The notes under the pieces: model-generated
What the model saw: the letters and a program-made list of their open reading frames with translations, nothing else
The model's database searches: none
Told to the model about the DNA's origin: nothing
Position numbers and translations under genes: made by a program
Virus record (IMG/VR): IMGVR_UViG_3300006104_000013
Location: 1-64,000 of that record
Strand: one strand, 5' to 3'
Source: a virus
Length of the DNA: 64,000 nt
Shown: in pieces, positions 24,657 to 43,068 of the stretch
Layout of the letters: each line of letters opens with the position of its first letter
Numbering within the stretch: position 1 is the first letter of the stretch

Positions 24657-24734
24657 TGGTCAGGGTGAGTGGATTTGAACCACCGGCCTCTGCATTCCGA
24701 GTGCAGCGCTCTACGCAAACTGAGCTACACCCTG
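24657..24734 (-). tRNA. tRNA-Pro(CGG)
   Basis: CAGGGTG acceptor, CTGCA-CT-CGG-AA-TGCAG anticodon arm, GGTTCAAATCC T arm, encoded CCA. Confidence 0.92.
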
Positions 24735-33526: not shown

Positions 33527-33736
33527 ATGATTGAGATGTCGTTCGACGCATTAGATGCGCTGGTCTCGAAAATCGAGGCTCAAATCACAGAACGCTCAGA
33601 ACACCTATCCTTCGGAGTCGCTTCGGACTTCGGGGATTACCGCAATCGCTGTGGATACATCCAAGCGATGAGAGATGTCCTTGATTACATCTCCGATATC
33701 ACCACCGAAATACATGAGGGGAAAACAAATGACTGA
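33527..33736 (+). CDS. conserved small protein upstream of GroES-like gene
   Basis: L..G.A.DF.DYR..CG.I.A pattern. Confidence 0.7.
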   Translation: MIEMSFDALDALVSKIEAQITERSEHLSFGVASDFGDYRNRCGYIQAMRDVLDYISDITTEIHEGKTND

Positions 33737-34151
33737 AGCAGCTCAGACGCTGATCATGCCGACTCCGCCGACTCCCGAGCAAGAAGCCGAACGCATTCGC
33801 GCGGCCCTGCCGGTTGACATTCAGAATGTCGAGGTCTTCGGGAACCGTATCCTGGTGGCCAAGTACGTCCGCGAGAAGATCGGGTCCATTTTCACCGCCA
33901 ACCAGACCCAGCGCGAAGATACCTTCCAGGGTAAGGTCGGTCTGGTCATCGCCAAGGGTCCCCTGGCCTTTAAGAGCGACCATGCCAACGACTTTTGTGG
34001 GCAAGATATCCAGGTCGGCGACTGGATTTCTTATAACTATGGCGACGGCAGCGATCTGGACGCCGTGGTGGACAACAAGCGCGTCGGCTGCAAGATCCTG
34101 AAGGACGTCGAAGTCCACGCCATCGTCCCCCGCCCCGACCTGTTCTACTAG
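33729..34151 (+). CDS. GroES-like co-chaperonin
   Basis: GNRILV...G.V...GP.A......VGD.I...ILKD.EV.A.V. Confidence 0.8.
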   Translation: MTEAAQTLIMPTPPTPEQEAERIRAALPVDIQNVEVFGNRILVAKYVREKIGSIFTANQTQREDTFQGKVGLVIAKGPLAFKSDHANDFCGQDIQVGDWISYNYGDGSDLDAVVDNKRVGCKILKDVEVHAIVPRPDLFY

Positions 34152-36566: not shown

Positions 36567-37481
36567 ATGCCCGTTTCCTTATCCGCAATCGCCAATCTGC
36601 TCTATCCCGGCCTCCGGGAAGTGACTGGCAAATATAAACAAATCGGACGTCAGTACGACAAAATCTTCGACCACATGAAGTCGGATATGGCGTTGGAACG
36701 CACCAGCGAAGCCCGCTACCTGGGTTACGCTCAGTTGAAGAATGAAGGTGCTGCCACCGCATTCGACAACCAAGCCGGTGTGCGGTTCACCTACAACCAG
36801 GAACACATCGAAATCGCCTTGGGGTATGCGATTACCCGCAAGGCCATCGATGACAACCTGTACAAGACGCAGTTCCAACCGTCGAACCTGGGCCTGATGG
36901 AATCCTTCAATCAGACCAAGGAAATCTACGGTGCCAACGTCCTGAACACTGCCAACGTCTATAATCAGGCGGTGGGCGGTGACGGCGTGGCCCTGTGCGC
37001 CCCCAACCACCAGGTTGATGGTTCGACCTACGCCAACACCCCCTCAGTGGCTGTTGACCTGAATGAATCGACTCTGCTGTCGGCGATGATCTCGATCCGT
37101 CGCAACTTCGTCGATCAGGCTGGTCTGAAGTTCTATGCCCGTGGCCGCAAGCTGATTGTGCCCCCGGAATTGGAACCGATTGCCATCCGTCTGTTGCAGA
37201 CCGAATTGCGTCCCGGCACTGCCGATAATGACGTCAATGCGATCCGCGCCACTGCTGGCGGCTTGACTGAAGGTTACATGGTCAACGACTTCCTGACCTC
37301 TCCCTACGCTTGGTTCCTGCTGACCAACGTCAAGGGTCTGGCCTACATGGAGCGGATGCCCTTTGAAACCGATATGCAAGTCGAGTTTACGACGGACAAC
37401 CTGCTGGTGAAGGGTTATGAACGCTACTCGTTTGGCGCGTATAATCCGCGCGCCATCTACGGTAGTTTTCCGACCTCGTAA
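36567..37481 (+). CDS. major capsid protein
   Basis: L.PGL, ALGYAIT..AIDDNLY, GGDGV.L....H, KLIVP, TADND.NA, ERYSFG...PR..YG; strong codon bias. Confidence 0.9.
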   Translation: MPVSLSAIANLLYPGLREVTGKYKQIGRQYDKIFDHMKSDMALERTSEARYLGYAQLKNEGAATAFDNQAGVRFTYNQEHIEIALGYAITRKAIDDNLYKTQFQPSNLGLMESFNQTKEIYGANVLNTANVYNQAVGGDGVALCAPNHQVDGSTYANTPSVAVDLNESTLLSAMISIRRNFVDQAGLKFYARGRKLIVPPELEPIAIRLLQTELRPGTADNDVNAIRATAGGLTEGYMVNDFLTSPYAWFLLTNVKGLAYMERMPFETDMQVEFTTDNLLVKGYERYSFGAYNPRAIYGSFPTS

Positions 37482-38865: not shown

Positions 38866-38879
38866 GCGAGGACTGACAA

Positions 38880-39266
38880 ATGGCTAAAGCAAAAGAAGGT
38901 GTGGTTGCCCACGACAAGCCCGGCAAGGCTTACAATGCCCAGGGCTCCAACGTCGAACACGAAGCGGAAGAAAAGGCCGAACGCAAGCGCGGCGGTCACT
39001 GCGAACGTGCCGAAGGTGGCGCTGCCGAAGAAGGCGCTGAAGAACGCGCCCATGGCGGCGGTCTGGACGCCATGAAGAAGAAAAAGAAAAAGGAAGAAGG
39101 CAAGGCCGAGGGTGAACATAATCGCCCCCGCTTCGATCGCCCCGGCCGCAAGCGCGGCGGTGCCATCGGTGCCAACCTGACTCCCTTGTCCACGGCTGCC
39201 AAGATCACCCCGGCCGAAGGCCGTAAGGACGTCGATGGCGATCGTCTGGACGAAGAAGAAGGCTGA
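38880..39266 (+). CDS. charged protein with repeated RxxGG motifs
   Basis: SD GAGG; RKRGG twice, RAEGG, RAHGG. Confidence 0.8.
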   Translation: MAKAKEGVVAHDKPGKAYNAQGSNVEHEAEEKAERKRGGHCERAEGGAAEEGAEERAHGGGLDAMKKKKKKEEGKAEGEHNRPRFDRPGRKRGGAIGANLTPLSTAAKITPAEGRKDVDGDRLDEEEG

Positions 39267-39479
39267 AGAGGCAGGGCGTCAGGCGGGCGTCTGACATCCT
39301 CCGAACGGAATGCCCTACCTGGAAAAGAGTTCGCTCTCCCAGGTAGGCGCTACCCGATAGAGAATAAGAGCCATGCTCGCAACGCGCTCGCCAGAGTCAG
39401 CCAGCACGGCTCTCCAGAAGAAAAGGCCAAGGTCCGGGCCAAGGTTCACGCCAAATATCCGGACATCGGTGAGGAGTAG
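39267..39479 (+). CDS. in-frame readthrough extension (DUF6582-like domain; not in ORF track)
   Basis: 70 sense codons after TGA: RGRASGGRLTSSERNALPGKEFALPGRRYPIENKSHARNALARVSQHG...KYPDIGEE; no in-frame ATG/GTG/TTG. Confidence 0.75.
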   Translation, partial: RGRASGGRLTSSERNALPGKEFALPGRRYPIENKSHARNALARVSQHGSPEEKAKVRAKVHAKYPDIGEE

Positions 39480-42414: not shown

Positions 42415-43068
42415 ATGCCACTTAAACCTGGAACATCGAACAAGGTCAAAAGCGATAATATCCGTGAGATGATCAATGCAGGTCATCCCAGGGATCAGTC
42501 GATCGCCGCCGCCATGCGCGAAGCTGACCAGAGTCGGAAGAAGCGTGCCGCCGGTGGATCGACACTGGCCCCCATGACCGCCGAGCCAGCCATCTTCGGA
42601 TTGGTGAATTCCACAGTCCCGGGCCGGACGGATCGCCACAACACGACTCTTCCCCATGGATCATACGTCCTCCCCGCCGACATCGTCTCAGGCATGGGCG
42701 AGGGCAATACCATGGCTGGGGCAAAAGTTGTCCGGCAAATGTTTTCTACCGGGCCGCACGGCGTCCCGATAAACCACACCCAGCGACAGAATACGATCCC
42801 AGGCGCAGCATCAAACCCGATGGTGCGCCATCACTATGCGCAGGGTGGCGAAGGCAGCGGCGTTCCGTGTGTCATCGCTGGTGGTGAGTTCGTACTGACC
42901 CCGGAAGAGGTCGCCTACAGCCCGCGTGCCGGTGCTGGCGACCCGAACAAGCCGGAAGATTTCCAGAAGTATCTGGATCGTGGGCATAAGGTCTTGGATG
43001 CTTTCGTTGTTGCCCGCCGAAAGATGGACATCAAGACAATTTCAAAACTTCCCGGACCTGTAAAATAG
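42415..43068 (+). CDS. multi-module virion protein (MPLK..S...NI.E N-domain plus two GG-initiated G[SE][YF]V modules)
   Basis: RAAGG...PGRTD...GSYVLPAD; YAQGG...GEFVL. Confidence 0.75.
   Translation: MPLKPGTSNKVKSDNIREMINAGHPRDQSIAAAMREADQSRKKRAAGGSTLAPMTAEPAIFGLVNSTVPGRTDRHNTTLPHGSYVLPADIVSGMGEGNTMAGAKVVRQMFSTGPHGVPINHTQRQNTIPGAASNPMVRHHYAQGGEGSGVPCVIAGGEFVLTPEEVAYSPRAGAGDPNKPEDFQKYLDRGHKVLDAFVVARRKMDIKTISKLPGPVK

What the first reader, a model, noticed from the sequence alone, without database searches (positions are those of the whole stretch)
38880..39479. Probable programmed UGA readthrough adding a conserved start-less domain
Seen: after TGA at 39264-39266 the same frame stays open for 70 codons. 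It reads RGRASGG and then RLTSSERNALPGKEFALPGRRYPIENKSHARNALARVSQHG..., which I recognise as a domain usually encoded as a stand-alone small phage protein (DUF6582-like). There is no in-frame ATG/GTG/TTG, and the linker repeats the RxxGG motif of the upstream protein. Two hairpins follow the stop: GTCAGGC-gggc-GTCTGAC (39278-39295) and CCTACCTGG...AGAG-ttcg-CTCT...CCAGGTAGG (39314-39347). Inference: structure-stimulated readthrough gives short and long forms at a fixed ratio. The first hairpin has a G-leading loop 18 nt from the UGA, which fits loose bacterial SECIS geometry, so SelB-dependent decoding is a speculative alternative.
Basis: partly seen in the sequence, partly recalled or inferred. 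Interest (0 to 1): 0.78.

Follow-up and report, generated by a model that had tools for sequence, protein, structure and literature searches.

The report
Stop bypass adds phage cargo domain
A small phage head-protein gene ends in a UGA stop that is followed, in the same frame and with no start codon, by a conserved 'cargo' domain; related phages suggest that some ribosomes get past the stop, by hopping or readthrough, to make a longer protein.

Summary
ORF 38880-39266 (128 aa, rich in RxxGG) ends in TGA, and the frame stays open for 70 start-less codons. These encode a genuine conserved domain (phrog_16160, E 3e-19), which is also part of the virion cargo protein gp45 of PhicrAss001. TGA is an ordinary stop in this phage (32 of 77 genes), and the phage has no suppressor tRNA.

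This gene pair is conserved in many uncultured phages. Its junction may be fused, coupled through ATGA or GTGA, or start-less. Start-less junctions carry recoding signals:
- CCC-stop with the domain in +1
- GAC_UGA_Y with the domain in +1
- a G-run plus stem-loop (-1)
- an A9 run (-1)

All three independent in-frame-stop lineages repeat the last sense codon exactly 9 nt downstream. The window has GGC UGA AGA GGC, L244 has GGT TGA GGC GGT, and L043/L094 have GAC TAG CCT GAC. The background rate is 2.3%.

I conclude that the UGA is bypassed at low frequency. A 9-nt in-frame "stop-hop" is the most likely mechanism, and near-cognate readthrough is the main alternative. A SECIS is not supported, and the hairpins are not conserved recoding elements. 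No close relative of this phage exists, so a tolerated nonsense mutation cannot be excluded.

The same stretch was noted once more by this scan (e1-6033581), on the same DNA.

The parts
38868..38872 (+). Shine-Dalgarno GAGGA of the upstream gene, 7 nt before its ATG
   Evidence: Read directly from the sequence.
38880..39263 (+). Upstream gene: 128-aa, low-complexity, charged protein with RxxGG motifs and the family signature FDRPGRKRGG
   Evidence: It is homologous to the RLDRPGRKRGG proteins of many phage contigs.
39261..39263 (+). Last sense codon GGC (Gly128), the proposed take-off codon
39264..39266 (+). In-frame TGA, followed by A
   Evidence: TGA ends 32 of 77 likely genes in this phage, and only 4 of those are TGA-A.
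39270..39272 (+). GGC, identical to the take-off codon and 9 nt downstream of it, in frame: the proposed landing codon
   Evidence: The same geometry occurs in L244 and in L043/L094. The background rate is 2.3%.
39267..39287 (+). Linker RGRASGG. It has no start codon, uses the rare Arg codons AGA and AGG, and ends in the xxxGG motif that precedes the domain in every non-stand-alone relative
39288..39476 (+). Small conserved domain (phrog_16160, DUF6582-like), homologous to residues 281-328 of PhicrAss001 cargo protein gp45
   Evidence: The AlphaFold2 model has pLDDT 80.9.
39477..39479 (+). TAG ending the extension. The SD GAGGAG (39471-39476) and ATG 39483 of the next gene follow
39270..39302 (+). 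Hairpin 1, starting 3 nt after the stop. Its upper stem is 39278-39295 with loop GGGC. It contains the CTG at 39291 in its 3' arm
   Evidence: z -2.2 for 63 nt.
39312..39350 (+). Hairpin 2, inside the domain coding sequence (ALPGKEFALPGR), built with the rare codons CTA and AGG
   Evidence: (z -4.25, second strongest of 77 homologous genes).

Best explanation
Most ribosomes terminate at UGA 39264 and release the 128-aa RxxGG protein. A minority get past the stop and continue in frame. They make a protein of about 196 aa that carries the linker ending in RASGG and the 63-aa cargo domain at its C-terminus.

The most likely mechanism is a short in-frame translational bypass, or "stop-hop". While UGA sits slowly decoded in the A site, peptidyl-tRNA-Gly unpairs from GGC (39261-39263) and re-pairs with the identical GGC 9 nt downstream (39270-39272). 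Decoding then resumes at AGG, giving ...LDEEEG-RASGG-RLT....

Inferred function: the upstream protein is a packaged head-internal protein, and the recoding sets a fixed low ratio of copies that carry the cargo domain. The xxxGG just before the domain is probably a processing site, because stand-alone versions start (M-A-K-L-T) exactly where GG|R-L-T would be cut.

Shown: the anatomy, the homology and the comparative pattern. Inferred: the hop itself, the ratio, the packaging and the cleavage.
For: 1. The extension is a conserved coding domain with no start codon.

2. The gene pair is conserved and tightly linked in many phages. About a quarter of independent junctions are start-less, and these carry recoding signals:
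- CCC_TAA or CCC_TGA with the domain in +1 (L010, L007, L085). This is the motif used for +1 shifts in the Listeria phage tsh genes (PMC5009743).
- GAC_TGA_Y with the domain in +1 (L092/L097/L111, L139, L249).
- ACG_GGG_GAA, 8 nt, then a stem-loop (z -5.3 and -4.3) with the domain in -1 (L129, L147).
- An A9 run with the domain in -1 (L016).

3. A cognate landing codon lies in the target frame within 12 nt in 10 of 12 start-less junctions and in 0 of 25 own-start controls.

4. All three independent in-frame-stop lineages repeat the last sense codon exactly 9 nt downstream: the window (GGC), L244 (GGT) and L043/L094 (GAC). The background is 2.3% over 4782 ORF ends. The take-off and landing codons therefore change together across lineages.

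5. L043 and L094 share 37% protein identity and have different downstream domains. The only significant nucleotide match between them is the 15-mer GACTAGCCTGACGGC at the junction. The in-frame stop is therefore old and maintained.

6. The nearest syntenic relatives, L010 and L085, also keep a stop and a start-less extension.

7. TGA is a normal stop here, and the phage has no suppressor tRNA.

8. The domain is part of a virion cargo protein detected by mass spectrometry in PhicrAss001.
Against: - There is no close relative of this phage, so conservation of this particular TGA cannot be shown.
- The GGC repeat lies in a Gly- and purine-rich stretch where chance matches are more likely than 2.3%. 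GAAGAAGGC followed by TGAAGAGGC could be a decayed tandem duplication.
- Classical synthetic stop-hops land directly after the stop (9 nt for one residue), whereas here one spacer codon intervenes.
- According to the 2016 review, no natural in-frame stop-hop has been demonstrated.
- Many more distant homologues are simple fusions.
- The domain is absent downstream of many family members, so it is dispensable in evolution.
- There are no protein data.
Confidence: 0.4

Rival explanations
1. Plain near-cognate readthrough. UGA-A is decoded at a low rate by tRNA-Trp, perhaps helped by the acidic C-terminal tail and hairpin 1. The product would be ...EEEG-W-RGRASGG-RLT....
For: - UGA is the leakiest stop in bacteria, and a following A makes it a weak terminator (textbook knowledge, not tested here).
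- A hairpin starts 3 nt after the stop.
- All the family-level evidence for recoding applies equally.
- Qbeta A1 is a precedent.
Against: - Readthrough does not explain why all three in-frame-stop lineages repeat the last sense codon exactly 9 nt downstream.
- The other in-frame-stop loci use TAG as well as TGA and share no 3' structure.
Confidence: 0.25
2. The TGA is a tolerated, fairly recent nonsense mutation in a formerly fused gene. The domain is no longer made, or is made only through background leakiness without selection.
For: - Many homologues are continuous fusions with ordinary residues at this column.
- The domain is missing after many family members.
- No close relative shows that the stop is conserved.
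Against: - The 70 codons are intact, keep every invariant residue of the family, and are 72-77% identical to the best relatives.
- Start-less junctions are far too common in this family, and too regularly equipped with shift or hop signals, to be accidents.
- The nearest syntenic relatives also have a stop there.
Confidence: 0.17
3. UGA terminates normally, and the domain is made as a separate small protein by termination-reinitiation at a non-AUG codon, CUG 39291. The terminating ribosome would expose this codon by melting hairpin 1.
For: - The CTG lies in the 3' arm of hairpin 1, 24 nt after the stop.
- Five relatives (L052, L200, L184, L003, L230) have a conserved GGACTGA junction in which a CTG overlaps the stop in the domain frame.
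- Many relatives use ATGA or GTGA coupling.
Against: - Starting at CTG 39291 would skip the RASGG linker. Every relative that is not a bare stand-alone gene keeps and translates that motif.
- There is no usable SD at a proper distance.
- CUG is a very weak bacterial start codon (general knowledge).
Confidence: 0.12
4. The stop results from an assembly or sequencing error, or UGA is decoded as selenocysteine through a SECIS-like hairpin.
For: - The record is a single metagenomic contig.
- The upper stem of hairpin 1 starts 11 nt after the UGA.
Against: - An identical 128-aa ORF is recorded on 6 contigs from four sources.
- There is no Rfam match and no tRNA-Sec.
- Homologues never have Cys at this column, and the site lies in a disordered linker.
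Confidence: 0.04

Closest known systems
Synthetic 'stop-hops' in E. coli and the translational bypass of phage T4 gene 60
   Same: The take-off and landing codons match, a stop codon lies directly 3' of the take-off codon, and decoding resumes downstream. The zero frame is kept, as in stop-hops (PMC5009743).
   Different: - The gap here is 6 nt (stop plus one codon). The classical stop-hop gap is 3 nt, and the gene 60 coding gap is 50 nt.
- No gene 60-type nascent-peptide signal or take-off stem-loop was identified.
- This case is natural and recurs in several phage lineages, but it is untested.
Qbeta coat/A1 UGA readthrough
   Same: A leaky in-frame UGA in a phage structural gene would add a C-terminal extension to a minority of copies.
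   Different: This is a dsDNA tailed phage. The extension is an independent mobile domain that most relatives encode as a separate gene. Flanking-codon identity points to a different mechanism.
+1 frameshifting at CCC_UGA in the tsh genes of Listeria phages PSA, A118 and A500
   Same: Relatives L010, L007 and L085 end the homologous gene in CCC_TAA or CCC_TGA with the extension in +1. The purpose is the same: a C-terminally extended minor structural form.
   Different: The window itself has GGC before the stop, and the extension is in frame.
T7 10A/10B and T3 capsid -1 frameshift extensions; lambda G/GT
   Same: These also set a fixed ratio of short and long structural products. Relatives L129/L147 show a canonical slippery run plus stem-loop.
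   Different: The window has no slippery run. The protein is not the capsid protein or a tail chaperone.
PhicrAss001 cargo protein 1 (gp45), PDB 7QOG chain M
   Same: Residues 281-328 are homologous to the extension domain (E 1.9e-8). That stretch was detected in virions by mass spectrometry (PMC10172136).
   Different: In gp45 the domain is an internal segment of an 842-aa protein and is unresolved in the map. No recoding is involved.

Membership tests
Programmed stop-codon readthrough (Qbeta A1 type) | An in-frame stop followed by an open, start-less extension that is homologous to real proteins | tested here: met
Programmed stop-codon readthrough (Qbeta A1 type) | The stop is conserved at this position in relatives | tested here: inconclusive
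   This phage has no close relative. The nearest syntenic relatives keep a stop but place the extension in +1. In-frame stops occur in L244 and L043/L094. Distant homologues are fused.
Programmed stop-codon readthrough (Qbeta A1 type) | A conserved 3' stimulatory structure | tested here: not met
   The window scores z -2.2 to -3.3, L043 scores -1.5 and L094 scores +1.2. L244 folds at -15.1 kcal/mol, with no shuffle control.
Translational bypass / stop-hop | Matched take-off and landing codons in the resumed frame | tested here: met
   GGC 39261 and GGC 39270.
Translational bypass / stop-hop | A slow A-site codon (a stop) directly 3' of the take-off codon | tested here: met
   TGA at 39264.
Translational bypass / stop-hop | The codon pair recurs or co-varies in independent lineages | tested here: met
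   L244 has GGT..GGT and L043/L094 have GAC..GAC, all at +9. The background is 2.3%.
Translational bypass / stop-hop | The product lacks the residues encoded by the gap | not testable with these tools
   This needs mass spectrometry of the junction peptide.
+1 frameshift at CCC_stop (Listeria phage tsh type) | A CCC codon before the stop, with the extension in the +1 frame | tested here: not met
   The window has GGC_TGA and an in-frame extension. The feature is met in relatives L010, L007 and L085.
Bacterial SECIS / selenocysteine insertion | A hairpin at the right distance with SelB-binding loop features | tested here: inconclusive
   The upper stem starts 11 nt after the UGA, but the loop is GGGC. 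No Rfam family matches.
Bacterial SECIS / selenocysteine insertion | Cys or Sec at the homologous position in relatives | tested here: not met
   The residues at that column are variable (K, Q, G, D, R, E...) or gaps, never Cys.
Bacterial SECIS / selenocysteine insertion | Sec machinery is available (tRNA-Sec, SelB) | not testable with these tools
   The phage encodes only tRNA-Pro(CGG) and tRNA-Met. The host is unknown.
DUF6582 (PF20223) / phrog_16160 | The score reaches the Pfam gathering threshold | tested here: not met
   20.5 bits against a cut-off of 27.3.
DUF6582 (PF20223) / phrog_16160 | A full-length match to the PHROG profile | tested here: met
   E 3.3e-19, profile positions 2-65 of 69.

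The most novel reading that the evidence does not exclude
Several lineages of tailed phages may use a natural, conserved in-frame "stop-hop" with the form XYZ-stop-NNN-XYZ. It would attach small cargo domains to a fraction of a head-internal RxxGG protein. The same orthologous junction is an evolutionary hotspot where at least five ways of joining two ORFs replace one another: fusion, NTGA coupling, +1 at CCC-stop or GAC_UGA_Y, -1 at G- or A-runs, and the in-frame hop.
Probability: 0.35. Interest if true: 0.85.

Novelty: new variant of a known kind. Interest (0 to 1): 0.68.

Why it matters
Recoding that adds a C-terminal extension to a phage structural protein is well known. Natural in-frame stop-hopping has never been demonstrated, however, and the 2016 review of the field states that no occurrence is known.

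This junction and its relatives offer testable candidates with a built-in comparative signature: the take-off and landing codons change together across lineages. The family also shows how freely evolution swaps recoding mechanisms at a single gene boundary.

Gene callers miss all of these start-less domains, so cargo and ejection protein repertoires of uncultured phages are under-annotated. The link to PhicrAss001 gp45 gives the orphan DUF6582-like domain a first physical context, inside virions.

Tried and rejected
- **Global TGA reassignment:** rejected. TGA ends 32 of 77 likely genes, the 3743-aa and 1677-aa ORFs contain none, and there is no suppressor tRNA. L094 and L179 show no sign of TAG reassignment either.
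- **SECIS or another known RNA element:** no Rfam match at E up to 10.
- **Promoter or terminator between the two ORFs:** none found.
- **Close relatives of this phage:** searches with the 128-aa protein, the 439-aa and 210-aa neighbours, the read-through product, and exact or degenerate junction patterns found nothing closer than about 50% protein identity in IMG/VR, JGI metagenomes, GTDB genomes and INPHARED. The one pattern hit, L180, is spurious.
- **Hairpin 2 as a recoding element:** rejected. Homologous genes with their own ATG (L143, L018) have equally strong hairpins, and the PG...PG codons are partly self-complementary.
- **JAB-like domain of the 3743-aa protein as the xxxGG protease (lead from e1-6033577):** not adopted. 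JAB domains in polyvalent proteins are of the RadC type and are thought not to be peptidases (PMC5512222). No prohead protease was recognised among ORFs at 24.9-35.7 kb.
- **Fold search of the domain model:** no PDB match.
- **L182 junction:** left unexplained.
- **CTGA class (L052, L200, L184, L003, L230):** no slippery or landing signal was found. CUG reinitiation is only a guess.

Full report
**Observation.** The window is the first 64 kb of a 99.5-kb IMG/VR viral contig. ORF 38880-39266 has a good SD and ATG and encodes a 128-aa charged, low-complexity protein with several RxxGG motifs. It ends in TGA at 39264-39266. The same frame then runs for 70 sense codons to TAG 39477-39479. None of these codons is ATG, GTG or TTG, and the only near-cognate codon near the N-terminus is CTG 39291.

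The 70 residues match phrog_16160 (E 3.3e-19, nearly the whole profile). They match Pfam DUF6582 below its cut-off. The 111-nt stretch folds better than all 200 shuffles (z -3.3). No promoter or terminator lies between the ORFs. An identical 128-aa ORF is on record from six contigs in four sources, so the stop is reproducible.

**Not a code change.** TGA ends 32 of 77 likely genes, and the two giant ORFs contain no TGA. The whole contig encodes only tRNA-Pro(CGG) and tRNA-Met. No Rfam family matches the region.

**Context.** The genes lie in the head module of an SU10-like phage (portal PF23899, adaptor-like protein, major capsid protein at 36567-37481). A profile of the extension domain hits one solved entry, cargo protein 1 (gp45) of PhicrAss001, at residues 281-328 (E 1.9e-8). 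That stretch is not resolved in the cryo-EM map, but its peptides were found in virions (PMC10172136). The AlphaFold2 model (pLDDT 80.9) is a small helix, beta-hairpin, two-helix unit with no fold match in the PDB. The domain is therefore most likely a packaged cargo module.

**The gene pair in other phages.** Searches with the domain, and with the DNA pattern for DRPGRKRGG, retrieved more than 200 loci. A protein with the signature RLDRPGRKRGG is very often followed directly by this domain, or by a second small domain (W-I-x-G-A-I-K-H-P-G-A-L-H...). The junction takes several forms:
- The two are fused in one ORF. This is also common in the protein database.
- The domain has its own ATG or GTG, which usually overlaps or abuts the stop (ATGA, TAATG, GTGA).
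- There is no canonical start codon at all.

Whenever the domain is not a bare stand-alone M-A-K-L-T protein, an xxxGG motif directly precedes it. The stand-alone N-terminus aligns with GG|R-L-T. This suggests, by inference only, that xxxGG is a processing site.

**Start-less junctions carry recoding signals.**
- L010, L007 and L085 end the upstream gene in CCC_TAA or CCC_TGA with the domain in +1. This is the site used for +1 shifts in the Listeria phage tsh genes (PMC5009743).
- L092/L097/L111, L139 and L249 have GAC_TGA_C or GAC_TGA_T with the domain in +1, so a second GAY codon overlaps the stop.
- L129 and L147 have ACG_GGG_GAA, an 8-nt spacer, and a stem-loop with z -5.3 and -4.3. The linker is conserved as protein in the -1 frame.
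- L016 has an A9 run with the domain in -1.

A cognate landing codon for the P-site tRNA lies in the target frame within 12 nt in 10 of 12 start-less junctions and in 0 of 25 junctions with their own start. L010 and L085 are the nearest syntenic relatives of the window: they have the 439-aa-like gene, the RGG gene, a start-less small domain, the 210-aa-like gene and the adaptor-like gene in the same order. Recoding at this boundary is therefore a family trait, and the mechanism varies.

**In-frame stops.** Four loci, representing three lineages, have an in-frame stop:
- the window: GGC TGA AGA GGC
- L244: GGT TGA GGC GGT
- L043 and L094: GAC TAG CCT GAC

Their upstream proteins are 32-50% identical. 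L043 and L094 share 37% identity and have different downstream domains. Over 680 nt, their only significant nucleotide match is the 15-mer GACTAGCCTGACGGC at the junction, and no other IMG/VR contig carries it. That stop is therefore old and maintained.

In all three lineages the last sense codon recurs exactly 9 nt downstream, in frame. Among 4782 ORF ends in the same data this happens in 2.3%. The codon pair differs between lineages but always matches, as expected for take-off and landing sites of peptidyl-tRNA re-pairing. Plain readthrough would not predict this. The 2016 review notes that in-frame stop-hops were shown with synthetic constructs but that no natural case is known.

**Reading of the window.** Low-frequency bypass of UGA 39264 is the best explanation, at about 0.65 for hop and readthrough together. 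I favour a GGC-to-GGC hop (0.40) over near-cognate readthrough (0.25).

Several points count against independent initiation. CTG 39291 lies after the RASGG linker, has no usable SD, and sits in the stem of hairpin 1. However, a terminating ribosome could expose it, and five relatives have a conserved GGACTGA junction that may use an overlapping CUG.

Two points count against a dead relic. The domain keeps every invariant family residue, and the nearest relatives also keep a stop.

The caveats are as follows. No close relative of this phage exists in any collection searched. The GGC repeat sits in Gly- and purine-rich sequence. Distant homologues are plain fusions with variable residues at the stop column. 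There are no protein data.

**The hairpins.** Hairpin 1 is specific to the window. The other in-frame-stop loci show no comparable structure, so a stimulatory role is possible but unsupported. Hairpin 2 is unusually strong (z -4.25) and uses the rare codons CTA and AGG. L010 and some own-start genes have one at the same place, however, so it is not tied to recoding. The SECIS idea fails on every available test.

**Verdict.** The finding is real. It is a new variant of a known kind. Its value is as a testable natural candidate for in-frame bypassing, and as one member of a gene boundary at which many recoding solutions interchange.

Noticed in passing
L129 and L147 (IMG/VR contigs 3300031718_000043 and 3300032954_000107), at the junction after the RGG gene: A canonical -1 frameshift cassette: ACG_GGG_GAA, an 8-nt spacer, then a strong stem-loop (z -5.3 and -4.3) whose sequence differs between the two loci. 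It leads into a start-less W-I-x-G-A-I-K-H-P-G-A-L-H domain.
   Followed up: partly
L052/L181, L200, L184, L003, L230: Five lineages share the junction GGACTGA, with the domain in the -1 frame and a CTG overlapping the stop (a CTGA overlap). No slippery or landing signal was found. This may be CUG reinitiation or an unknown shift.
   Followed up: partly
L182 (IMG/VR 3300037230_000036), about 1100-1210: A start-less domain in the -1 frame after ...CCT GGG TAG, with no recognisable signal.
   Followed up: no
L085 3294-3494, and L092, L094, L097, L101, L111, L117, L118, L132, L139: A second small domain family (GAIKHPGALH...VPEGEKIP...) occupies the same slot after the RGG protein. It is always preceded by xxxGG and was not matched to any family here.
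   Followed up: partly
window 24657-24734 (-) and contig position 94535-94607 (-): The phage encodes tRNA-Pro(CGG) and tRNA-Met(CAT). In relatives, but not in this phage, a Pro codon (CCC) is the +1 shift site.
   Followed up: no
window 39267-39275 and 39318-39347: The rare Arg codons AGA and AGG (9% and 7.5% of Arg codons) sit directly after the stop. Rare CTA (4.8% of Leu codons) and AGG build hairpin 2. This suggests selection at the nucleotide level.
   Followed up: partly
window 33675-34148 (+): A GroES-like co-chaperonin (phrog_3188) lies just upstream of the capsid genes. The distant relative MW202675 also encodes a GroES.
   Followed up: no
window 42415-43068 (+): Another head-module protein carries RAAGG and YAQGG motifs, in line with the xxxGG signal noted in e1-6033582.
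   Followed up: no
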